Part shown: positions 1-10,567 of the stretch, piece after piece
Numbering within the stretch: position 1 is the stretch's first letter
Layout: each line of letters opens with the position of its first letter
IMG/VR virus record: IMGVR_UViG_2802429231_000001
Length of the DNA: 10,567 bases
DNA from: a virus
Taxonomy: Duplodnaviria > Heunggongvirae > Uroviricota > Caudoviricetes
Strand: one strand, 5' to 3'
Made by a program: the position numbers and the translations under genes
The notes under the pieces: generated by a model
What the model was told of the DNA's origin: nothing
Databases searched by the model: none
What the model saw: only the letters and a program-made list of their open reading frames with translations

Positions 1-28
1 TAATATCTAAAACAAAAAGGATAAAAAT

Positions 29-535
29 ATGAAATTATATAAGTCATTGTATAGCTTTTTATTAATGTCCTCTTTTCTGCCATTATCAGCAATGGCAGGT
101 TCTACCGTTTGGACGGTAGGAGGTGAGCAAGGGTGGAGAGAAATCTCTGCAACCAATGACGATGGTTATACAATTAACTTTTCTTGTGATGCTGGAGCAA
201 GGGAAGGTTCCGAAGATCATATAGCTGGAAGAAATTTGTATGTAAGTGGAGGGAAAGAGAATGCTGATTTTTCTACACGCGACACAATTTCTCGTAAAGC
301 TGATGTAATTACCTTAATTGTTGGTTCGGATAGCTTTAATATTGGTACGCAAAACACTGCTCCAAATCGTAGGGAATGGTATTCTTTTTGGAAGTCAGCG
401 TCAGCCACAAAAGAAAAAAACATGGATGTATATATCGGATCGCGTCGAATTACATCATTCTCTCTTGATGGAATTTCAAGTATTTACAAGGAAGCTAAAA
501 ATGATGGATGTTTAAAGCAAGATGACGGTGAATAA
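29..535 (+). CDS. Small secreted/periplasmic protein of unknown function (168 aa precursor, predicted Sec type I signal peptide, two Cys in the mature part)
   Basis: ATG at 29 preceded by AAGGA (18-22). N-terminus MKLYKSLYSFLLMSSFLPLSAMA|GS has a basic n-region, hydrophobic core and A-M-A cleavage motif (nt 29..97). There is no Cys at the cleavage site, so it is not a lipoprotein. Lower G+C than the phage genes downstream. The last 14 nt overlap the start of the next ORF. Confidence 0.6.
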   Translation: MKLYKSLYSFLLMSSFLPLSAMAGSTVWTVGGEQGWREISATNDDGYTINFSCDAGAREGSEDHIAGRNLYVSGGKENADFSTRDTISRKADVITLIVGSDSFNIGTQNTAPNRREWYSFWKSASATKEKNMDVYIGSRRITSFSLDGISSIYKEAKNDGCLKQDDGE

Positions 536-1706
536 AGTGAAGGATATTAAAAAACTTGCACTTGGCTCAGTAAGCGATCTCTATAATAGAGATTCAAATA
601 TTACCTGGCGTGATAATTTAAGTAAAATCAAAATGCCAGGATATACATCGGCAAGTGATTTATTAAAATCAGAATATGCTTCTAATAATTTGGTTAGACA
701 GTTGGCAGAACTGCAAAAAAACGCAATCATTCCATCGTATAGAGAACATATGGCAAACTTGCAAGAACAGTTAAGAATAGGGCGGCTAGCTCAAGAACAA
801 ATAGCAAGATTGAATTTGCAATCGTTACTTAGTGATTCTGTTAAAAAACAGCTTGCGAACATGACGAGCTTGAGAAGAATAAATAGCAAGCATCGTGAAT
901 TTCTTGAAATTCTACAGAAACAGGCCAAGGTTTATCCCCCGCATGATGCAAATAAATACATTCAAATGCTAAGGAAGCAGGCAGAAATTGCTATGCCGTT
1001 ACGAAACCAGTTCGAGATGCTTAATAAGCAAGCTGGTTTAAATAACATGCAAGCAATACTTAATGAATTGCGACAAAATGTAAGTCATAAGATAGATTTA
1101 AACAATGAAATAAAAGAATCATTAAAACAATATACCCTAGCGCAAAAGGCTTCATTACATCAAATAATGGAGCAAAGTCTTTCATCAATTGCACAGGCTT
1201 ATGTCGAAGGTGCTATTGAAACATCTCACAACGAAAGTGATGTTCAAGACAAAGGATTAAATAAATCCAGTTCGACGTTCATTGATTCATTTAAGTCGCT
1301 CCCTCACCCGCTTCAGTTTATTATTATGTGGCTTTTAACAGAAGTGGTGCTTGGCGCTATTGCTGATTATGCAAAAGAACAAATCTTATCGCAAATACAC
1401 AAGACAGAATCATATTCTGTATCCCTATATGAGGATGCACCAATATCAAAACAAAAATTAATTAAAGAAAACACAGAAATTAAGTGGGAAGATCTCAATG
1501 GTTTTAGGTTTATAACTGGTGATAACGTAAGATTACATGTCAGTCCTTCTTTAAATAGTGAAGTGATTGAATGCATTGGCAAAAACACAATTGTTGCTAT
1601 TTTAGATAAGAAAGATCGTCAATGGCTTTACGTGCAGGTTAAATCAGGGGATGAGTTTATTACTGGTTGGATTACACGAACATACACAAAGCCTCTTAAG
1701 GCTTGA
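522..1706 (+). CDS. Single-pass membrane protein: N-terminal coiled-coil region, one transmembrane helix, C-terminal SH3b-like domain (394 aa)
   Basis: Long ORF in the most AT-rich part of the window. Heptad-like Q/L/K/E-rich helical region at about nt 670..1210. Hydrophobic segment LQFIIMWLLTEVVLGAIA at nt 1311..1364. C-terminal segment DNVRLHVSPSLNSEVIECIGKNTIVAILDKKDRQWLYVQVKSGDEFITGWITRTY (about nt 1500..1690) matches the bacterial SH3 (SH3_3) pattern of NVR, a hydrophobic core, W-x-x-V and G-W near the end. ATG 522 overlaps the upstream ORF; an in-frame GTG at 537 is an alternative start. Confidence 0.7.
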   Translation: MTVNKVKDIKKLALGSVSDLYNRDSNITWRDNLSKIKMPGYTSASDLLKSEYASNNLVRQLAELQKNAIIPSYREHMANLQEQLRIGRLAQEQIARLNLQSLLSDSVKKQLANMTSLRRINSKHREFLEILQKQAKVYPPHDANKYIQMLRKQAEIAMPLRNQFEMLNKQAGLNNMQAILNELRQNVSHKIDLNNEIKESLKQYTLAQKASLHQIMEQSLSSIAQAYVEGAIETSHNESDVQDKGLNKSSSTFIDSFKSLPHPLQFIIMWLLTEVVLGAIADYAKEQILSQIHKTESYSVSLYEDAPISKQKLIKENTEIKWEDLNGFRFITGDNVRLHVSPSLNSEVIECIGKNTIVAILDKKDRQWLYVQVKSGDEFITGWITRTYTKPLKA

Positions 1707-1819
1707 ATTTTATCTCCGCATCTTCGGATTGGGTGTTGATGACGATGTGCTACTTGAAGCACTTGAGTTGTTTTAACGTAGTATCTGAAATGTGTAGACT
1801 GACCGGTAACAAATGACAA

Positions 1820-2427
<608 letters not shown>

Positions 2428-2437
2428 GGTCGTTGAT

Positions 2438-3049
2438 ATGGGACTTAATGTTGCATCAGTAAAGTCTTATATATCTTCGGCATTAACGACGACATTATTT
2501 GGCTCCGGCGTTGGTGAGCGGGAAGTTGGTAAGCTGACGTCAATCATCATGAACAAAATGCTGTTCGCGCAAGGATGGCAGTTCTCTGTCGAAGTTGATG
2601 GGCTGGAGGGGGCAGACTTCTTTGCCAAAGACATTACCTACCACGATTACAGCATCGAATATGAAATGATTAAAATCGGCGGAGGGAATATCCTTCAGCC
2701 AACGGAGCGTTCGCCTGGGCAGATAACAATGATGGTCAGGGATACCGGTGATGGCCTCGTTTTGGACTGGTTTAAGACGGCAAAAAGTCGGGTGATCAAT
2801 CCTGACGGCACCGTGAACATACCGTCTAAATATTTGCTCAATGTGCGTATTTATCGGTTGCTGTCTTCCGGTTTAACCAAACTGGAAAATGAGATGACGG
2901 TATTCCCGGTTACTACCGGCGATGTCACCTATGCGCGGGATCAGGTCACGGAATTTAAGTCATTCCCAATGACCTTCGCATTGCACAGCACGTTTAACCA
3001 ATCCTCAAGTTCTTTGGCTTCCCTTCTGGGCTTTAGTTTTTCTCTTTGA
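2438..3049 (+). CDS. Tail tube protein of a contractile tail (T4 gp19 / Afp1 / Hcp-like tube family), 203 aa
   Basis: SD TGAGG 8 nt upstream. Motifs WQFSVEVDG...ITYHDYSIEYEMIKIGGG...SPGQITMMVRDTGDGLVLDWF parallel the conserved tube blocks recalled from Afp1 (YRFxVxVxD...IEYRDG...PGQ...ITLRKG...LFDW). Position is immediately upstream of the chaperone-position gene and the tape-measure gene. Confidence 0.7.
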   Translation: MGLNVASVKSYISSALTTTLFGSGVGEREVGKLTSIIMNKMLFAQGWQFSVEVDGLEGADFFAKDITYHDYSIEYEMIKIGGGNILQPTERSPGQITMMVRDTGDGLVLDWFKTAKSRVINPDGTVNIPSKYLLNVRIYRLLSSGLTKLENEMTVFPVTTGDVTYARDQVTEFKSFPMTFALHSTFNQSSSSLASLLGFSFSL

Positions 3050-3063
3050 ATTAAGGAGCAAGG

Positions 3064-3945
3064 ATGCTTTTACCCCTTTTCCCGCTACCATCGCGGCCAA
3101 CTGAATTGATCCAGTTCCGTCAGCCAAATATTGCTGATGCGATGCGTTTCAACTCGATAACACCGGAGGAACAAGAACAACAGACAACGGCATATTTAAA
3201 AGCCTTGCTGGCTGAACCCGCGAAACATGATCCCCTGACATGGACGGCGCAGGACCGGATTACCGCGTTATGGTGGATATTTACCGGCTCCCGTGAAACA
3301 CCGGTCGAGACATTCACCTACACCTGTAAACATTGCGGTAAAGAGCATTATTACGATTGCGATATGAATGCTCTGGCTGAAGATATCCAGGTCCTGGAAG
3401 TGGAACCTTTCATTGACGATATTGAGGTGTCTGTAGAGGGAGTGCCTTATCAATGGCGTATCGTGCCGCTTGATGGTTGGGCAATGGAAATGCTGGAGAT
3501 GCGCCGTGCAGCATTGCCACCTGAAGACGACGCGGAATTCAAAGAAGCGATCGTTGATTTGCGTTTTTGGGAATTCGCTTATCAGTGTGAGCTTTATAAC
3601 GATGTTAGCGGTACTCGTGAAGATCAGGCTGAGCGTCGTTATGAAACGATTAAACGGATGGCCATTGATACTGAATTTATGAAGCTGGCGGCACACATCC
3701 GACTGGCTCATGAAAAGCTCGAACATGGTTTACCGTGCTACATCGATAAAGGTGAAATGCGTCTTCGTCTCCCGCCGCATAAATGCCCAAACCAGGATAA
3801 AAAGGAGTCCACAGAGGGTGCGTATACCCGTCTGTGGGTGCCCTTTCGGGCTACCGACTTCATTCCACAGGTGGGGATTGAAAAGCTATCAGACCTTAGT
3901 GTCCAACCTGGTTTTGTATGGGGGTATACCGATTCAGGACGCTGA
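3064..3945 (+). CDS. Cys-containing protein of unknown function (293 aa) in the position usually occupied by tail assembly chaperones, between tube and tape measure
   Basis: Strong SD AAGGAG 6 nt upstream of ATG 3064. Contains a C-K-H-C-x6-C cluster (TYTCKHCGKEHYYDCD) plus further Cys, suggesting a possible metal-binding site. The functional call is positional only. Confidence 0.55.
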   Translation: MLLPLFPLPSRPTELIQFRQPNIADAMRFNSITPEEQEQQTTAYLKALLAEPAKHDPLTWTAQDRITALWWIFTGSRETPVETFTYTCKHCGKEHYYDCDMNALAEDIQVLEVEPFIDDIEVSVEGVPYQWRIVPLDGWAMEMLEMRRAALPPEDDAEFKEAIVDLRFWEFAYQCELYNDVSGTREDQAERRYETIKRMAIDTEFMKLAAHIRLAHEKLEHGLPCYIDKGEMRLRLPPHKCPNQDKKESTEGAYTRLWVPFRATDFIPQVGIEKLSDLSVQPGFVWGYTDSGR

Positions 3946-4026
3946 AAGGCTCACTGAATCCTATGCGTTTTTCCTGTTGGAGAAACTGGAAGAAAAACTT
4001 AAACCGAAACGGTAGGCGATAAGATC

Positions 4027-7000
4027 ATGGAAAGAAAAAACGCCAACATTGACGATGTTATAAGGACAGTTGAAACCGCCAGCGCAAAAGAGCTGGAAGA
4101 GCTTGCTGGTATCCGGGAAGCTGTTGAAGATTTGAAAGGTGGGCGAGTTGCTACTGTTGATCCTGTCTCTCGCAGCGTGTCGGCATTAAATCACACAATC
4201 GAAAATTCCCGGCCTGACTTTGTGGCCAAAGCGCCATCAGTAGACCCTATTGTTGACGCAATGAAACGGCTTAATTTAGGGGACGTTTCTCGTGTAGTTC
4301 AGGAAGATGTTGCTCAACAGGAACAGCGGGCCAAATCAACCACACCAAATGGTAAAAAACGACGCAGGAAGGCTATACCAGAGGATGTAAAGGCGCAACG
4401 GACCGAAGCAGCCGAACACGCTCGCGAAATGTTCGGTCAAAAAGGCGGTGCGCAAAAAAGCCAAAACCAACGCGATGCGCGTGGTCGTTTTATTGGAAAG
4501 TCAGGGAGTAAGGCCGCAGCGGAAGATGCCCGTGCTGAACGAGCAGAAAAGGCCAGGCGAAAAGAGGATGATGAGCGTCTAAATGCTGAATCAGGTTTAT
4601 TAAAAAAACTGTCAAAAGTAGCTGAAGGCATAGGTAACCCTTCAGAGACTCGTGCCGTCGATGCGTTAGGTTATGCCGTTGCTGGTCCATTGTGGGCCGC
4701 AGGGAAGGAGCTTGGCGGGATATCAAAAGAAGTTGGTGGATCGCTTAATGGTGCCAGAAAGTCTATTGCCGATGTGATTCGTGGCAATGACGATAACAGC
4801 CGTAGAAAAGGTTTTTTTAGGCGTAAATCGCAAAATAGTGCCGATGTCGTTCAGGTTAACACCCAAAAACGGACGGTTCAGGAACTTCAGGATCAGACCA
4901 GCGAAATTAAAGATGGCAATGACAAGATTCTCAGCGCCCTTGATCAGATAGCCAAAAACACCGGGAAAAAGAAGGGCGGCTTGCTGTCCAAATTATTTAG
5001 CCTGTTAGGGAAGGGGGCCGGTGGCGTCGCGTCGTTGTTAATGGGGCGTGGCATGCTGAAAAAAGCTGGAGCACTCGCTTTTGGCGCTCTGGGGGCAAAG
5101 AAACTTGTAGGAATGCTACGCGGTGGTGGCAAGAAGACTCTCGCCCATGAAGGCGGAGATTTGGCTGCCCGGGCAGCAGGTAAACTTGGATTAAAGGCAG
5201 TTGGTAAAGGGGCGTTACGCGCAATTCCCCTAGTCGGCACAGTGGCTGGAGGTATTTATGATGCGGTAACCGGTTGGAATGATACAGAAGCGCAACGTCG
5301 AGCGTTTGGGCTTAAATCAGGACAAGATCCATCATTCCAGCAAAAAGCCGCTTATACGTTAGCTAATGTTCTTGATATGGGGGGACTGGTATCTGGTATT
5401 AGCAGCGCCATTGGTGAGGTTCTCAAATCACTTGGATTTGAGGATATCGGCAATATGTTGCAATCATTTTCGACGGAAAGTATTGCCCTGGCCATTGATA
5501 GTGGGATTACCAACTTAGAAACATATATTTCTAACCTTGGCGACACCATTTCTACCAAGTTCGATGATTACACAGCAAAGATTGGTGATGCTGTTTCAGC
5601 ATGGTTTAGCGATACATCTAATAAGCTGCTTGAAAAGCTGGATGCCATCAAAGACTTCTTTACTGTCGATAACCTGAAACAGGTTTTCAGTGATGCAATT
5701 GATAGTGCAATTGATTTCATTAAGAACCCAGGGAAACACATTAAAGAGGCGGCTGGTAATATTTGGGATGGGGTTAAAAATTTACCAGGTAAAGCATTAG
5801 ATGCAGCGGTTGATGCCGTTAAAAATACCCCTGCGGCAATGATTGTATCAAAAATACCCAATCCGATCGGCGAGGCTAATGCGAAAGAAATCACTCCAGA
5901 GTTAAAAGCTCCGGTTAATAGCCACCAGGGGACATCTGATTCTAAAACTGAATCCGATGCCAAACAGACTAATATTGCTGCCCGCGTGATAAATGCGGCT
6001 CTGGATATGGCGAAAGATAGCAATAAAACAGTTAAAGAAACTGCTAATCAGATTATCAATGCAAATGCCGTAGAAACAGGAAATAAAGCAGCACAAACAA
6101 TTGATGCTGCCTTGGGGCAGTCTGCTACAGGTAAGGAGGAAGCATTAAGTGCATATGAGATAGATAAACGTCGATTTAACAATGGCAAGGATGTTTCTTT
6201 GCCAAAATTAAATGCTGCCGGATACCAATGGATTTCTGACAATGCCGATTATTTTGATGAGCTTGAACGTAAGTATGGGCTTGAAAAAGGGATTCTGTCA
6301 GCAGTTGCATCCGCAGAGTCTAGTGCAGGCCAGAGAACTGGAAATCCAGTAGACAAAAACGGGAACAAACTTTCATCTGCCCTTGGGGCTTTTCAGATCA
6401 CTAAAGGTACAAGGGAGGATCTTGGACTCAGCGATGCTGATGCCATGGATACACGAAAAGCAGCTGATGGTGCCGCCAGATACCTAAGTATGCTGATGAA
6501 CCGTTATAACGGTGATCAGGGTCGTGCAATAGCTGCCTATCATGCTGGTATGGGGCATGTTGATAAGGGGAGAGTAGTCGCAGGTACCGGCGAATATGTT
6601 ACTCGTGTCAGAGGGTATCAGCAGATGCTCAATAATGGTGCCGTTTATGGCTCTAAGGTAGATCATAGCGCACCAGCAATTTACGAAAAGATACCTGATA
6701 ACGCCGTTATCGATCAGTCTACTGGCCTGGCGTTTACCCCTGGTGATAGCCCGTTTGAGAAAGGCGGTCTGGTAGACAAAATCGGCAATGCTGTTGGCGT
6801 TAACGATCTGGTCAACAAATTCATGAATGGCCGGGGTATGCGTCGGGAAGTCGTTCAGGGAACGCTCGAAGAACGTGCACGAGGGAAGGGGACCGCAACA
6901 GCAGCTGGCAATGTGTATGTTGATACTCCGATGCCAGTTGAAGAGGCGCGTCCGGTGGCCAGCAACTCAAGTTACTTTGACCAACTCGGCGCACAAATGG

Positions 7001-7401
7001 GGATTGATGGACTATTCGATAAACTCCGCAACTCGCCGGGGATGCGGAAAAATAATGCGCTTGAACCAGCCTCCACGTCCCAGGTGACGACTGCCGCCAA
7101 CGATTTGCAGCAACCAACCGGTCGTATGCAGATAGACGGACAGGTTATTAGTGACCTTGGCGGCTCCGGTGCCAAGCCGACAATGCAGTTGGCTGATAAT
7201 ACCGTTTCACTTGATGGTGAAACGAAGCGGCTGTTTGCGCAGATGACCTCATTGCTTGCCAGGATTGAAGAGCACACCAAAGACTCGGCGAAAGGCCAGG
7301 GAACTGTCGTAAAGGTCAGCACGCCTCAGCCGGGCGTTATGCGCACGGTACCACTGTCAATTGATGATCCGTTGATGAATGACTACGCGAGAGTTGATTG
7401 A
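4027..7401 (+). CDS. Tail tape-measure-like / injection protein with embedded soluble lytic transglycosylase (SLT) domain, 1124 aa (architecture resembles phage P1 Sit)
   Basis: Longest ORF in the window. N-terminal charged helical region; K/R/E-rich low-complexity stretch (about nt 4335..4610); Gly/Ala-rich hydrophobic glycine-zipper-like segments (about nt 4965..5280); SLT domain at about nt 6200..6620 with ...SAVASAESSAGQ... (putative catalytic Glu codon 6316..6318), GAFQIT and AAYHAG motifs typical of family 1 lytic transglycosylases. The SD is weak. The stop TGA 7399..7401 overlaps the next start. Confidence 0.8.
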   Translation: MERKNANIDDVIRTVETASAKELEELAGIREAVEDLKGGRVATVDPVSRSVSALNHTIENSRPDFVAKAPSVDPIVDAMKRLNLGDVSRVVQEDVAQQEQRAKSTTPNGKKRRRKAIPEDVKAQRTEAAEHAREMFGQKGGAQKSQNQRDARGRFIGKSGSKAAAEDARAERAEKARRKEDDERLNAESGLLKKLSKVAEGIGNPSETRAVDALGYAVAGPLWAAGKELGGISKEVGGSLNGARKSIADVIRGNDDNSRRKGFFRRKSQNSADVVQVNTQKRTVQELQDQTSEIKDGNDKILSALDQIAKNTGKKKGGLLSKLFSLLGKGAGGVASLLMGRGMLKKAGALAFGALGAKKLVGMLRGGGKKTLAHEGGDLAARAAGKLGLKAVGKGALRAIPLVGTVAGGIYDAVTGWNDTEAQRRAFGLKSGQDPSFQQKAAYTLANVLDMGGLVSGISSAIGEVLKSLGFEDIGNMLQSFSTESIALAIDSGITNLETYISNLGDTISTKFDDYTAKIGDAVSAWFSDTSNKLLEKLDAIKDFFTVDNLKQVFSDAIDSAIDFIKNPGKHIKEAAGNIWDGVKNLPGKALDAAVDAVKNTPAAMIVSKIPNPIGEANAKEITPELKAPVNSHQGTSDSKTESDAKQTNIAARVINAALDMAKDSNKTVKETANQIINANAVETGNKAAQTIDAALGQSATGKEEALSAYEIDKRRFNNGKDVSLPKLNAAGYQWISDNADYFDELERKYGLEKGILSAVASAESSAGQRTGNPVDKNGNKLSSALGAFQITKGTREDLGLSDADAMDTRKAADGAARYLSMLMNRYNGDQGRAIAAYHAGMGHVDKGRVVAGTGEYVTRVRGYQQMLNNGAVYGSKVDHSAPAIYEKIPDNAVIDQSTGLAFTPGDSPFEKGGLVDKIGNAVGVNDLVNKFMNGRGMRREVVQGTLEERARGKGTATAAGNVYVDTPMPVEEARPVASNSSYFDQLGAQMGIDGLFDKLRNSPGMRKNNALEPASTSQVTTAANDLQQPTGRMQIDGQVISDLGGSGAKPTMQLADNTVSLDGETKRLFAQMTSLLARIEEHTKDSAKGQGTVVKVSTPQPGVMRTVPLSIDDPLMNDYARVD

Positions 7402-7757
7402 TGGCCAACAATAACGAAATTGATCCTTTGCTGACGCTGGAGTTATCCGGCGTAAAAACGTATGAGTCCCAGGAGGAGGCCTGGGGCGCTCGTTTATATG
7501 AGTGGCTAAACACTTATCAGGGTGAGGTATACGGGGATCCGTCATGGGGCAATGTTTTACCGCAGTTTAAACACGAACCGACCAACTTGTCGCATGTTCA
7601 AATTGCGGTTGAGGCAATGCTGTTGCAAAAACTGACGATAGATTTACCTGACATACCGATTTCTGGCTTGTCAGTAGCCGAGGGAGATGCTTTTGATAAG
7701 TTGAAAATATCCATTCGTATCAGGGATATAACTATCACACAGGACGTGGTGCTATGA
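7401..7757 (+). CDS. Small baseplate protein, possibly GPW/gp25-like wedge protein (118 aa from ATG 7401; an in-frame TTG at 7398 is also possible)
   Basis: ATG 7401 overlaps the upstream stop by 1 nt (TGATG). Size and position match gp25/GPW-like proteins. The stretch LNTYQGEVYGDPSWGNVL...HEP loosely resembles the gp25-family block (L-T-x-x-GER-x-x-P-x-FG ... EPR). Weak motif support only. Confidence 0.5.
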   Translation: MANNNEIDPLLTLELSGVKTYESQEEAWGARLYEWLNTYQGEVYGDPSWGNVLPQFKHEPTNLSHVQIAVEAMLLQKLTIDLPDIPISGLSVAEGDAFDKLKISIRIRDITITQDVVL

Positions 7758-9187
7758 GTAAAACAACACCGACTAAAGACAGTATTCGTGCAGAGTTTGA
7801 AGAGCTTGTCGAGAAAGATTCATTCTGGTCGAAGTTTGTCGGCTCTCAATTTGTCTCGATGCTGACATTGTTTATTACCCAGATTGTCTACAGGTGCTTT
7901 CAGTATGCCGATGCGGCGCTGGCTGAAGGCTTTATATCGACCGCGACGCGGCGTTCCTCTATCCTGGCAGCGGCAGAAACGAATAGTTACGTTGGTACCA
8001 AGCCAACACCGTCATCGGGGATGATTGAGATCACCGCCACAAGTGAAGATGCCCCAGCGGTAATTCCCAAAAACATGCCTTTAATATCTGACGACCAGTA
8101 CCCTTACATGACTATGGATGTATGCAGGTTGGTTGACGGCACCGGTACGGTAGAAGTGGCACAGTTGGAAATCCAGGAGGTGACATATACCGTTACGGCT
8201 GCCAAAGAATTTCTGGAAGTCGTGTTATCAAAGGCTCTCACTGCTGTCTGCTATAAGCTGGAAGTATTCGTGACGACCGATGGTAAGACCACGCAGTGGT
8301 CTTCCAGCACAATGTTCCGGTTAGCTGGTAGTAAAAGCCAGGTCTACGTTGAGTTTTATAAACCATCCGAACAGTTGGGTGTCCGATTCGGCGATGGGCT
8401 AATTGGGCAAATACCGCCAGAAGGCTCGACAATTACGCTTAAGGTATGGTGCACCAACGGCGATATAACCCTGGTTGCTGGCCAAAACCTGACTCCTGTT
8501 GATTCTGCGGCTAATTTAGCTAATTTGATTTCAGTTAAGACAACGACACCTATAACCGCAGGTACCGATGCTGAAACAACGGAGATCACACGTAACCGTG
8601 CACAATATTACCTTGCCTATGATGATCAGGTCGTATGGGGCGGGGACTATACGTATTTTCTGGTGCGTAACATCCCGGGACTGTCCTGGGTAAAGGCATG
8701 GGGCGAAGGCCAGCAAGAGAAATTAGATGGTGCTTATAATGTTCGGAATATCAATAAGATATTTATTTCAGGATGGCATCCAAACAAAAGCCAGTCAGAG
8801 CTTGAAGAAATGATCCTGGCCGCCTTTAAGAAGGTGCCGAATGAGTTGAACAAGAAATTCTCGTATAAAGAGGTCAGAAAACTACCCTTTAAGATCACCA
8901 TCACTGGGCGGATATCGGCAAGCCTGACCATTGAGAACGTGACTGATGAGCTGAAGTCGGCACTGGAAACAAAATTTGGGCGTGACTCAACTTTCTTTGA
9001 TCCGAACCGTGTCGGCAAGTACATCCTAATCAAGAAAAAAGACGTTTGGGCATTTATCGAAACGCTGGGTTATTTCCGCGACTTTTATCTGGAATTTGTC
9101 GAGTGGAATGAGTCCAACGGCTTTTACGATTTCGTTTATCTGGATACAGAAAACTCCACCTTTAATATTTCGTATGAGGAGGAGTGA
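7754..9187 (+). CDS. Putative baseplate J-like (gp6/gpJ-family) baseplate protein, 477 aa
   Basis: ATG 7754 overlaps the upstream stop (ATGA). Lies immediately after the gp25-like gene, as in P2 (W-J) and Mu (gp46-gp47) baseplate modules. Size is compatible. No motif was verified by eye. Confidence 0.55.
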   Translation: MSKTTPTKDSIRAEFEELVEKDSFWSKFVGSQFVSMLTLFITQIVYRCFQYADAALAEGFISTATRRSSILAAAETNSYVGTKPTPSSGMIEITATSEDAPAVIPKNMPLISDDQYPYMTMDVCRLVDGTGTVEVAQLEIQEVTYTVTAAKEFLEVVLSKALTAVCYKLEVFVTTDGKTTQWSSSTMFRLAGSKSQVYVEFYKPSEQLGVRFGDGLIGQIPPEGSTITLKVWCTNGDITLVAGQNLTPVDSAANLANLISVKTTTPITAGTDAETTEITRNRAQYYLAYDDQVVWGGDYTYFLVRNIPGLSWVKAWGEGQQEKLDGAYNVRNINKIFISGWHPNKSQSELEEMILAAFKKVPNELNKKFSYKEVRKLPFKITITGRISASLTIENVTDELKSALETKFGRDSTFFDPNRVGKYILIKKKDVWAFIETLGYFRDFYLEFVEWNESNGFYDFVYLDTENSTFNISYEEE

Positions 9188-10023
9188 TGCAGCGTTCCTG
9201 GTTTAATAACCGGCTTACATCAGCTAAGCAAAAGTCATTACTTTATAAATCATTGGCTGATTTGGTTCAGTCAATGATGGACACCTTTGTTGACCCATGG
9301 TTGGAGCGAATTACCAACCGGAAGTCTATTTTCTCCATGAGCAAGGAGGATCTGGAGACTAGGACAAATGAACTTGGCCAGTTTTTTACTATCAGAACGT
9401 CGAATTCATCTTCCGTTCCGATGTTGTTACAACAGCGGTTTGATGAGATCCATTTTAAGGGTACTGAACGCCCTATAAACCAGACAATTTATCGCGAATT
9501 TAACGGTATATCGGTTTTATGGGATCCCATATATGCTCCGGTGGACTTTGAACGTCATCCCTATGGCACGGTCCTGATTCCAGAAAGCACACTGGAAACC
9601 ACCGGCGGCACATTCGGCGAGATGTTTCTGACTTCCAGAGGAATGATCAGTATTCCCATAAACGACCTGGCCCGGACAATGGGTATTACTGGAACGATAG
9701 ATCAGTCCGCAATTACAGAAGAAATTCTCAGAAAGTTTAATCAGTTCGTAAAGCCTCTACTGCCACTGCATATAGTGTTTGATGGGCTTACGCTCTATTT
9801 GTCGGTTGTTGTAAATGAACAGGCCGACATGATCACTTTGAATGAGATTTCTGATACCGAAAAAGCATTCTGCTGGTTTGAAACTTCGGATACAACTTCG
9901 CTTACTGAAGTTACGTCGATTAACGCCCCGATCACTGCAACGCCGGGCGGCACTATTGTGAAAGCAACGCCTACGTTTGATCGCACCCGCGCAGATGATT
10001 TGCTGTTGGATAGCGATGCGTGA
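9187..10023 (+). CDS. Putative baseplate or tail-fibre attachment protein (P2 gpI-like position), 279 aa
   Basis: ATG 9187 with GAGGAGG 4-5 nt upstream; overlaps the upstream stop (TGATG; an in-frame GTG at 9184 is also possible). The call is positional only. Confidence 0.5.
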   Translation: MQRSWFNNRLTSAKQKSLLYKSLADLVQSMMDTFVDPWLERITNRKSIFSMSKEDLETRTNELGQFFTIRTSNSSSVPMLLQQRFDEIHFKGTERPINQTIYREFNGISVLWDPIYAPVDFERHPYGTVLIPESTLETTGGTFGEMFLTSRGMISIPINDLARTMGITGTIDQSAITEEILRKFNQFVKPLLPLHIVFDGLTLYLSVVVNEQADMITLNEISDTEKAFCWFETSDTTSLTEVTSINAPITATPGGTIVKATPTFDRTRADDLLLDSDA

Positions 10024-10026
10024 CAA

Positions 10027-10051
10027 TCACCCCGTCCGCAGGGCGGGGTGA
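10027..10051 (+). terminator. GC-rich hairpin (8-bp stem TCACCCCG/CGGGGTGA, 9-nt loop) starting 4 nt after the 9187..10023 stop; possible weak terminator, attenuator or RNA-stability element
   Basis: Read directly: 10027..10034 is the reverse complement of 10044..10051. It is flanked by the direct repeat TGACAA (10021..10026 and 10050..10055). There is no clear U-tract downstream, so intrinsic termination would be weak at best. Confidence 0.3.
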
Positions 10052-10101
10052 CAAGTTACTTATCTTACAATGAGGCTTCACAACATTGATTAGGGAAAAT
10101 C

Positions 10102-10545
10102 ATGTCTGACGTCTCAACAAACCTCTATAAGAGTCAGTTGTTGGACTATTACTATCAGCGGCGCGCTGAATCGTCCATTAACAAAGGCTCTCGATTTTTA
10201 ATCAGCAAGGCCGTTTTCGGTACCAGTTCACTGGTTACTAAGAAAGGAGATGGCACTTATGAGATTGGAGAACTGCCAAAGGCTTTCGATCTGGCAGAAC
10301 TGACCAGTCAATTTTGCACCATCAACCTCGTCCCAACCTACTCAGGCGGGATAATTACTGTCCGAATGGACCTTGATCAAAGTCAGTTGCAGGAAGGGAA
10401 AAACTACCCATTCAACACTCTGGTTGTTCTGGATAACGAGAATAAGCCAATCGCCATTATTTGTGTCCAGGAAGACTCGCTGTATGTGGGCAAAACATAT
10501 ACCGCTGAACCGCCCCGGTTTTCCTGGAGAGTATTTTACCTGTGA
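10102..10545 (+). CDS. Small protein with tail-fibre collar-like (P2 gpH N-terminal-like) domain, 147 aa; probable tail fibre or fibre-attachment component
   Basis: ATG 10102 with GGGA upstream. The blocks FLISKAVFGTS...TINLVPTYSGGIITVRMDL...FNTLVVLDNENKPIAIICVQEDSLY resemble the tail-collar fibre domain found at the N-terminus of P2-type tail fibres, as recalled from memory. The ORF terminates at 10545, 22 nt before the window end. Confidence 0.5.
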   Translation: MSDVSTNLYKSQLLDYYYQRRAESSINKGSRFLISKAVFGTSSLVTKKGDGTYEIGELPKAFDLAELTSQFCTINLVPTYSGGIITVRMDLDQSQLQEGKNYPFNTLVVLDNENKPIAIICVQEDSLYVGKTYTAEPPRFSWRVFYL

Positions 10546-10567
10546 ACTCAGGCTGCCAGCTCATCAT

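What the first reader, a model, noticed from the sequence alone, without database searches (positions are those of the whole stretch)
29..540. Secreted partner protein translationally coupled to the membrane protein
The ATG of the second ORF (522) lies 14 nt inside the first ORF, which ends at 535. This indicates operon organisation and probably stoichiometric co-expression of the exported protein and the SH3b membrane protein. The mature exported protein is about 145 aa with two Cys, compatible with a periplasmic disulfide.
Basis: seen in the sequence. Interest (0 to 1): 0.4.

Follow-up and report, generated by a model that had tools for sequence, protein, structure and literature searches.

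The report
Exported protein gene abutting SH3 membrane gene
Two tightly packed genes for cell-envelope proteins, one exported and one membrane-anchored, occupy the "superimmunity" slot of a P1-like phage-plasmid; the tight junction is real but ordinary, and the two proteins are not obligate partners.

Summary
The sequence facts hold. ORF1 (29-535, 168 aa) has a Sec-type signal peptide (AMA|G), giving a mature protein of about 145 aa with two Cys (C53, C161). ATG 522 starts the longest form of ORF2, 14 nt inside ORF1. However, GTG 537, one base after the TAA, has the better Shine-Dalgarno (GGTGA; -7.7 vs -3.9 kcal/mol) and is RefSeq's choice in 3 of 4 plasmids checked. The overlap itself is therefore uncertain, but the junction is tight under either start.

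The window is a P1-like phage-plasmid. The low-GC cassette replaces P1 simB-simC, downstream of the conserved Oc4/PsimA region and just upstream of pmgC-tub-pmgB-sit.

ORF1 belongs to a small exported family (PF27224, phrog_3429) under strong purifying selection (dN/dS about 0.1). ORF2 has a hypervariable helical N-terminus, one transmembrane helix and a near-invariant SH3b domain.

The "partner" reading is weak. At least 113 plasmids and several phages carry an ORF1-family gene without ORF2. Citrobacter elements carry ORF2 without ORF1. One lineage separates the two genes by 74 nt.

Most likely these are independent envelope modules of a variable superinfection-exclusion locus, co-transcribed here. 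That function is inferred from position only.

The parts
17..21 (+). Shine-Dalgarno-like AAGGA, 7 nt upstream of the ORF1 ATG
   Evidence: Sequence; anti-SD duplex -5.4 kcal/mol
29..535 (+). ORF1: 168-aa exported protein of the PF27224 / phrog_3429 family, function unknown
   Evidence: ORF list; phrog_3429 E 4e-70; PF27224 precomputed for P0001; dN/dS 0.08-0.10 against three variants; AF2 model pLDDT 84, mixed beta/alpha
29..97 (+). Predicted Sec signal peptide (aa 1-23, K2/K5, hydrophobic core, AMA|G). No lipobox Cys, so not a lipoprotein
   Evidence: Sequence; an equivalent N-terminus in all 19 family members
185..187 (+). Cys53 codon, invariant in the family
   Evidence: Alignments A3/A4
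509..511 (+). Cys161 codon (GCLK motif); the second Cys, present near the C-terminus in most family members
   Evidence: Alignment A3; two Cys in the mature part in 18 of 19 members
522..524 (+). ATG: longest possible ORF2 start, 14 nt inside ORF1, with a weak SD
   Evidence: duplex -3.9 kcal/mol; used by PGAP in one plasmid
527..531 (+). GGTGA Shine-Dalgarno for GTG 537, embedded in ORF1 codons 167-168
   Evidence: Duplex -7.7 kcal/mol, spacing 5 nt; invariant in four variants
537..539 (+). GTG: better-supported ORF2 start, one base after the ORF1 TAA (TAA-A-GTG)
   Evidence: PGAP start in L002, L007 and L009
537..1706 (+). ORF2: 389 aa (394 from ATG 522). Helical, hypervariable N-terminal region, one transmembrane helix, C-terminal SH3b domain (phrog_7086)
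   Evidence: N-terminal 250 aa dN/dS about 0.5 and mosaic, C-terminus near-invariant
1308..1376 (+). Predicted single transmembrane helix (aa 263-285 of the 394-aa form)
   Evidence: Kyte-Doolittle 19-mer maximum 1.83; a single comparable segment 128-133 aa from the C-terminus in 15 of 15 homologues
1521..1685 (+). SH3_3 (bacterial SH3) domain, aa 334-388
   Evidence: Pfam E 1.1e-5, 26.0 bits against cut-off 27; 15 of 15 homologues match, best 2.3e-9
1689..1714 (+). Weak terminator-like hairpin (AAGCCTCTTAAGGCTT) plus a T-rich tail, overlapping the ORF2 stop
   Evidence: Consensus scan on the identical plasmid L002 5689-5704; number of hits no greater than in shuffles
1808..1860 (+). Right boundary of the cassette: homology to P1 resumes here (late promoter LPsit region upstream of pmgC)
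   Evidence: Megablast to P1 starts at about 1808; P1 annotation

Best explanation
The window is a P1-like (Punavirus) phage-plasmid. Bases 1-1800 are a low-GC accessory cassette in the 'sim' (superimmunity) slot, downstream of the conserved C1 operator Oc4 / PsimA region and immediately upstream of the late operon pmgC-tub-pmgB-sit. In this lineage the slot holds three envelope-protein genes. The first, just left of the window, is a full-length secreted 'SimA-like' gene. ORF1 is a Sec-exported periplasmic protein of about 145 aa, probably with one disulfide. ORF2 is an inner-membrane protein with a variable cytoplasmic helical N-terminus, one transmembrane helix and a periplasmic SH3b domain that probably binds peptidoglycan. 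ORF1 and ORF2 are co-transcribed. ORF2 most likely starts at GTG 537 (possibly also ATG 522), with its SD inside the end of ORF1, so ribosomes finishing ORF1 can reinitiate on ORF2. The two proteins are independent modules of a recombination-prone locus, not an obligate complex. The most likely role of the cassette is envelope-level superinfection exclusion of P1-like phages, by analogy with P1 Sim, which acts between adsorption and DNA entry. Shown here: the gene structure, export signals, genomic context, family distributions and selection pattern. Inferred only: membrane topology, the disulfide, actual coupling and the exclusion function.
For: Context: P1 homology covers only bases from about 1808 onward. 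P1 carries simA-simB-simC at this position. Oc4/PsimA and the first ~45 codons of simA are almost identical between P1 and the plasmid that matches the window. GC is 0.35 against about 0.47 in the backbone. sim is a published hypervariable, low-GC region of P1-like phage-plasmids (PMC9603915). P1 Sim is reported to cause superinfection exclusion (references cited in PMC8546580). ORF1 is a real exported gene: dN/dS 0.08-0.10; signal peptide and two Cys conserved; confident AF2 model. ORF2 architecture: SH3_3 in 15 of 15 homologues; a single hydrophobic helix at a fixed distance from the C-terminus; N-terminal region mosaic and fast-evolving. Junction: better SD for GTG 537; PGAP start calls; invariant junction; no consensus promoter or terminator between the genes. 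Independence: 177 against 64 plasmid records; ORF1-only loci; ORF2-only loci; 74-nt spacer lineage. Supporting the exclusion idea for the locus: the upstream SimA-like protein carries a roughly 40-aa C-terminal copy of a motif from Sit, the phage's own tape-measure/transglycosylase (E about 1e-8). ORF1-family genes also occur in jumbo phages.
Against: There is no experimental or homology-based functional evidence for either protein. PADLOC, NCBIfam and local Pfam give nothing for ORF1. There is no homology to SimB or SimC. Fold searches give only a weak IalB-like hit. The ORF2 model was unusable (pLDDT 38), so the topology rests on hydropathy alone. ATG 522 cannot be excluded: solo Citrobacter homologues have a similar number of residues before the shared DIKK motif. 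The recurrence of ORF1-ORF2 adjacency with two ORF1 alleles only 29% identical could reflect a functional link rather than a shared insertion hotspot.
Confidence: 0.5

Rival explanations
1. One reading: ORF1 and ORF2 form an obligate periplasm/membrane complex (for example, mature ORF1 bound to the SH3b domain), and the overlap enforces equimolar synthesis.
For: Junction sequence invariant across variants of 86-100% identity. SD embedded in ORF1. Both proteins are targeted to the envelope. ORF1-family and ORF2-family genes are adjacent in two lineages whose ORF1 alleles share only 29% identity. The SH3b domain is near-invariant.
Against: At least 113 plasmids, several P1-like phages and jumbo phages have an ORF1-family gene without ORF2. 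Citrobacter elements have ORF2 without any ORF1-family gene. A 74-nt spacer replaces the tight junction in one lineage. ORF1 and the ORF2 N-terminus have very different divergence and recombination histories. The junction RNA is unstructured with an exposed SD, so independent initiation is possible.
Confidence: 0.2
2. ORF1 is a periplasmic inhibitor of a peptidoglycan hydrolase, working like Ivy, MliC/PliC or PliG. It would neutralise the SLT domain of Sit from an incoming phage, or protect the lysogen's cell wall.
For: Small periplasmic protein with a Cys pair. Encoded next to the operon that includes Sit, which has an SLT domain. Located in a superimmunity locus.
Confidence: 0.1
3. The cassette is lysogenic-conversion cargo that benefits the host (envelope or adhesion function) and is unrelated to phage exclusion.
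Against: The fold match is marginal. ORF1 has no outer-membrane or surface-anchoring feature. The family also occurs in jumbo phages. The slot is the one that holds the exclusion gene in P1.
Confidence: 0.15
4. The genes act in lysis or its timing (SH3b cell-wall targeting, as in endolysins), expressed alongside the adjacent late operon.
For: Weak hit of the ORF2 C-terminus to an amidase PHROG through its SH3 part (phrog_1794, E 4e-4). Position directly upstream of the late promoter LPsit.
Against: No catalytic domain is detected. The cassette lies upstream of, not within, the late transcription unit, and follows the PsimA/Oc4 region. P1 sim-locus genes are non-essential for lytic growth (PMC10695390).
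Confidence: 0.07

Closest known systems
Bacteriophage P1 sim operon (simA-simB-simC; Sim superinfection exclusion)
   Same: Same genomic slot and the same upstream regulatory region (Oc4/PsimA and the 5' end of simA are almost identical). Low-GC variable cassette. Encodes signal-peptide-bearing envelope proteins.
   Different: ORF1 and ORF2 have no detectable similarity to SimB or SimC (blastp and hhalign). This cassette adds a membrane-anchored SH3b protein. An exclusion phenotype has not been tested.
Classic translationally coupled gene pairs (e.g. E. coli trpE-trpD and trpB-trpA)
   Same: Stop and start codons overlap or abut, with the downstream SD inside the upstream coding sequence.
   Different: Dependence of ORF2 translation on ORF1 translation has not been shown. 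The junction is unstructured with an exposed SD. The arrangement is not conserved in related loci (74-nt gap).
Envelope-level superinfection-exclusion proteins of other phages (T4 Imm/Sp, P22 SieA, Streptococcus phage TP-J34 Ltp). This comparison is from general knowledge and was not tested here.
   Same: Small phage-encoded periplasmic or membrane proteins that block genome entry. Ltp targets the tape-measure protein; here the neighbouring SimA-like protein carries a Sit (tape-measure) motif.
   Different: No sequence relationship was found (PADLOC, Pfam and PHROG annotations give nothing). ORF1 is not a lipoprotein.
IalB (invasion-associated locus B, PDB 3dtd)
   Different: Similarity is marginal (Foldseek E 0.04, TM about 0.35; 11-14% identity). 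There is no Pfam IalB hit. IalB's own biochemical function is unknown, so it gives no mechanistic lead.

Membership tests
PF27224 / phrog_3429 (uncharacterised exported phage protein family) - ORF1 | Full-length profile match | tested here: met
   phrog_3429 E 4.2e-70, residues 4-166 against profile 1-158 of 158. PF27224.1 is listed as precomputed for the identical protein P0001. That model is absent from the local Pfam copy.
PF27224 / phrog_3429 - ORF1 | N-terminal Sec signal peptide plus conserved W28, G35, C53, W117 and a C-terminal Cys | tested here: met
   Alignments A3/A4; 19 of 19 with signal-peptide features and 18 of 19 with two mature Cys.
Bacterial SH3 domain (Pfam SH3_3, PF08239) - ORF2 C-terminus | HMM score at or above the gathering cut-off for this protein | tested here: inconclusive
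   26.0 bits against cut-off 27, E 1.1e-5. The 99%-identical P0007 carries a precomputed PF08239.18 hit.
Bacterial SH3 domain (Pfam SH3_3, PF08239) - ORF2 C-terminus | Domain recognised consistently across the homologous family | tested here: met
   15 of 15 aligned homologues match SH3_3, best E 2.3e-9. The AF2 secondary structure shows six beta strands at 330-385, but at low confidence.
P1 Sim superinfection-exclusion system | Located in the sim operon between Oc4/PsimA and pmgC | tested here: met
P1 Sim superinfection-exclusion system | Sequence homology to SimC (the active Sim protein) or SimB | tested here: not met
   No blastp hit at E <= 1. hhalign probability 0.1-1.2%, aligning signal peptides only.
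P1 Sim superinfection-exclusion system | Blocks P1 infection after adsorption and before DNA entry | not testable with these tools
   Requires plating and DNA-entry assays.
Translationally coupled gene pair | Stop/start overlap or abutment, with the downstream SD inside the upstream ORF | tested here: met
   ATG 522 gives a 14-nt overlap, or GTG 537 gives a 1-nt gap; SD at 527-531.
Translationally coupled gene pair | Downstream start masked by mRNA structure that upstream ribosomes must open | tested here: not met
   Junction 490-570 folds no better than shuffles (MFE -8.8 kcal/mol, z 0.20).
Translationally coupled gene pair | ORF2 translation depends on ORF1 translation | not testable with these tools
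   Needs nonsense-mutant and reporter experiments.
Periplasmic lysozyme / lytic-transglycosylase inhibitors (Ivy, MliC/PliC, PliG) | Sequence or fold match to an inhibitor family | tested here: not met
Bacterial lipoprotein | Lipobox with Cys at +1 of the cleavage site | tested here: not met
   The signal peptide ends LSAMA|GST, and there is no Cys before residue 53.
Known anti-phage defence systems (PADLOC-DB) | HMM match to any defence-system protein | tested here: not met
   No family matched ORF1, ORF2 or the upstream SimA-like protein.

The most novel reading that the evidence does not exclude
The three-gene cassette is a previously uncharacterised allele of the P1 superimmunity locus that excludes superinfecting P1-like phages at the cell wall. 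Its parts are the secreted SimA-like protein with a Sit-mimicking C-terminus, exported ORF1, and the SH3b membrane protein ORF2. In this reading the SimA-like protein acts as a decoy for a motif of the tape-measure/transglycosylase Sit. ORF1 and the peptidoglycan-anchored ORF2 provide additional or specificity-determining blocks. The fast-evolving ORF2 N-terminus would reflect an arms race among co-circulating phage-plasmids.
Probability: 0.25. Interest if true: 0.55.

Novelty: new variant of a known kind. Interest (0 to 1): 0.3.

Why it matters
The reported feature, a stop/start junction between two operon genes, is routine and teaches little by itself. The context is more useful. P1-like phage-plasmids are widespread carriers of resistance genes in Enterobacteriaceae, and what decides which of them can coexist or exclude each other is poorly understood. 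This cassette is carried by dozens of sequenced plasmids. It is a concrete, testable candidate for an alternative exclusion module, built from proteins unrelated to P1 SimB and SimC. If it does exclude phages, it would help explain compatibility among phage-plasmids. It would also add a new exported family (PF27224) and an SH3b-anchored membrane protein to the known envelope-level anti-phage proteins.

Tried and rejected
- Structure of ORF2: the AlphaFold2 run on a 15-sequence alignment gave pLDDT 38, so it was not used for fold search.
- afdb50 fold library: not installed.
- PDB sequence-profile searches for both families: only noise.
- PADLOC and NCBIfam: nothing for any of the three proteins.
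- Long repeat proteins P0066, P0067 and P0073, which appeared as weak ORF1 hits: these are PKD, ice-binding or ChW repeat proteins and were rejected as spurious.
- ORF1 against SimB/SimC by hhalign: signal-peptide similarity only.
- Comparative discrimination of ATG 522 from GTG 537: failed, because the junction is invariant in all variants fetched.
- Rfam scan of bases 1-2000 and a repeat scan: nothing relevant.
- The antisense ORF at 217-423 was disregarded, because the substitution pattern fits the + strand ORF1.
- Lobocka et al. 2004 (P1 genome paper) is not held in the library. Literature searches found no study of these proteins.
- A first ungapped dN/dS run was misaligned inside ORF2 and was replaced by a codon alignment.
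Full report
**1. What the sequence shows**

ORF1 runs from 29 to 535 on the + strand (168 aa, stop TAA 533-535). The longest form of ORF2 starts at ATG 522 and ends at 1706 (394 aa), so the stated 14-nt overlap exists. The ORF2 frame has a stop at 513-515, so no start upstream of 522 is possible.

- The ORF1 N-terminus is MKLYKSLYSFLLMSSFLPLSAMA|GST. It has two Lys, a hydrophobic core and an AXA site, with no lipobox.
- Cleavage there leaves 145 aa with Cys53 and Cys161.

**2. Which start does ORF2 use?**

Two in-frame candidates are plausible.

| Candidate | Upstream element | Anti-SD duplex | RefSeq/PGAP choice |
|---|---|---|---|
| ATG 522 | distant GGAUG only | -3.9 kcal/mol | 1 of 4 related plasmids |
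| GTG 537 | GGTGA (527-531) at 5-nt spacing | -7.7 kcal/mol | 3 of 4 related plasmids |

- The -7.7 kcal/mol value is similar to those of the neighbouring P1 late genes.
- GTG 537 lies one base after the TAA.
- The 27-nt junction is invariant in variants of 86-100% identity, so comparison cannot decide between the two starts.
- Solo Citrobacter homologues have about six residues before a shared DIKK motif. This fits the ATG form slightly better.

I favour GTG 537, at roughly 60:40, and both starts may be used. Either way the ORF2 ribosome-binding site lies within the last codons of ORF1.

The junction RNA is no more structured than shuffled sequence (z 0.2). Reinitiation is therefore possible, but independent initiation is not prevented. 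No consensus promoter or terminator lies between the genes. A weak terminator-like hairpin overlaps the ORF2 stop.

**3. Genomic context**

From about base 1808 onward the window is 96-99% identical to phage P1 and its relatives. The genes there are pmgC, tub, pmgB, sit (SLT-domain tape measure) and baseplate genes.

- Bases 1-1800 do not match P1 and have GC 0.35 against about 0.47 for the rest of the window.
- In P1 this position holds simA-simB-simC, the superimmunity operon.
- The whole 1800 bases are 100% identical to several ~95-kb IncY plasmids of E. coli and Salmonella. In total 62 plasmid records match.
- In one identical plasmid (L002), the P1 regulatory region (C1 operator Oc4, predicted PsimA) and the first ~45 codons of simA are almost identical to P1. 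The sequences then diverge.
- In L002 the locus reads: a 163-aa secreted SimA-like protein, an 88-nt spacer, ORF1, ORF2, then pmgC.
- The sim region is already described as one of eight hypervariable, low-GC regions of P1-like phage-plasmids (PMC9603915).
- P1 Sim is reported to cause superinfection exclusion (references cited in PMC8546580).
- The P1 sim genes are non-essential for lytic growth (PMC10695390).

**4. ORF1**

ORF1 matches phrog_3429 over its full length (E 4e-70). Its database twin carries a precomputed PF27224 hit. All sources name it "hypothetical protein".

- The family is small: 22 representatives among 1.8 billion proteins.
- Members occur in P1-like elements, Cronobacter phage JK004, and jumbo phages of Serratia and Klebsiella.
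- All 19 aligned members have a Sec-type signal peptide. Eighteen have exactly two Cys in the mature part.
- Against three variants, dN/dS is 0.08-0.10, so this is a genuine, constrained gene.
- AlphaFold2 gives a confident model (pLDDT 84) of about nine beta strands and two helices.
- No similarity to SimB, SimC, lysozyme inhibitors or PADLOC defence proteins was found.

**5. ORF2**

Homologues (47 clusters) come almost entirely from ~95-kb contigs of Escherichia, Salmonella, Citrobacter and Yersinia.

- The last ~130 residues are highly conserved and the final ~45 are nearly invariant.
- A single hydrophobic 19-mer (Kyte-Doolittle 1.6-2.0) lies 128-133 residues from the C-terminus in 15 of 15 homologues.
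- All 15 match SH3_3, with best E 2.3e-9. The window protein itself scores 26.0 bits against a cut-off of 27.
- The N-terminal ~250 residues are helical, vary in length, contain repeats in some homologues, and evolve quickly (dN/dS about 0.5).
- The gene is mosaic. One variant is 100% identical over the C-terminal 140 residues but only 44% identical before that.
- There is no signal peptide, so the likely topology is N-terminus in the cytoplasm and SH3b domain in the periplasm. This is an inference.
- The AF2 model was too poor to use.

**6. Are ORF1 and ORF2 partners?**

The distributions argue against an obligate pair.

- ORF1-family genes occur in 177 plasmid records and ORF2-family genes in 64.
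- Three loci go straight from an ORF1-family gene to pmgC. These are phage Ro157c2YLVW, Cronobacter phage JK004 and a Salmonella arizonae plasmid whose ORF1 homologue is 56% identical.
- Jumbo phages carry the ORF1 family alone.
- Citrobacter elements carry a solo ORF2 homologue on the opposite strand to its neighbours. No Citrobacter plasmid has an ORF1-family hit.
- In a large E. coli lineage (L012) a 29%-identical ORF1 allele sits next to a 68%-identical ORF2 allele, but 74 nt separate them.

Adjacency therefore recurs, while the tight junction is specific to this lineage. The recurrence could reflect a functional link or simply a shared insertion hotspot.

**7. Best explanation**

The finding is a pair of co-transcribed accessory genes for envelope proteins in the sim slot of a P1-like phage-plasmid. 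ORF1 is periplasmic. ORF2 is a membrane protein with an SH3b domain. A stop/start junction allows, but does not prove, translational coupling. The most likely function is envelope-level superinfection exclusion. That rests on three lines of indirect evidence:

- the position in the sim slot;
- the predicted cellular location of all three products;
- the presence of the ORF1 family in other phages.

No direct evidence supports it. Rival readings are scored separately in the report: an obligate complex, a transglycosylase inhibitor, host-benefit cargo, and a lysis function.

**8. Novelty and score**

The junction itself is ordinary. The cassette is an uncharacterised variant of a known kind of locus, and both protein families are already catalogued as being of unknown function. 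Interest is 0.3.

Noticed in passing
L002 3449-3940 (identical plasmid NZ_CP031351.1), ending about 88 nt left of window base 29: A 163-aa secreted protein lies directly upstream of ORF1. Its first 42 residues are 90% identical to P1 SimA (52 aa). P1 'simA' therefore appears to be the truncated 5' remnant of a longer gene, interrupted where simB-simC begin. Full-length versions (163-215 aa) occur in Ro157c2YLVW, Cronobacter JK004 and a S. arizonae plasmid.
   Followed up: partly
window 6784-6915 (Sit aa 920-963), compared with L002 3812-3937: The C-terminal ~40 residues of the SimA-like protein (GIDSIRNAPGMRHQNVQGTLEERARGPG) resemble a segment of the phage's own tape-measure/transglycosylase Sit (FMNGRGMRREVVQGTLEERARGKG). 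Identity is 39-51% with E about 1e-8. A second, weaker match falls at Sit 977-1010. This could be a decoy or mimic relevant to superinfection exclusion.
   Followed up: partly
window 537-1295 (ORF2 aa 1-253) and homologues P0051/P0052: The ORF2 N-terminal region is mosaic and fast-evolving. In L008 it is 44% identical while the C-terminal 140 residues are 100% identical. In Citrobacter werkmanii homologues it contains tandem ~19-aa repeats (SVSLSERITKLAQGSTIAD).
   Followed up: partly
L002 3965-4000, just left of the window: A 10-bp-stem hairpin (GGGCAUAGUG...CACUAUGCCC type) lies in the 88-nt spacer between the SimA-like gene and ORF1. It folds better than shuffles (z -2.8) and has no U-tract. 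A TATAAT hexamer follows it directly. Its role is unknown.
   Followed up: no
L012 1535-1885 (NZ_CP067237.1): In another P1-like lineage the SimA-like gene is replaced by a 116-aa protein with several hydrophobic segments. It is followed by a 29%-identical ORF1 allele and a 344-aa SH3 protein. The ORF1-family gene is the most constant member of the non-P1 sim alleles.
   Followed up: partly
window 1-1800 compared with 1801-10567: There is a sharp composition step: GC 0.34-0.37 in the cassette against 0.41-0.53 in the P1 late genes. This is consistent with horizontally acquired cargo.
   Followed up: yes
window 1814-1860: A 17-nt inverted repeat (88% complementary, 13-nt spacer) lies in the region homologous to the P1 late promoter LPsit, just upstream of pmgC.
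   Followed up: no
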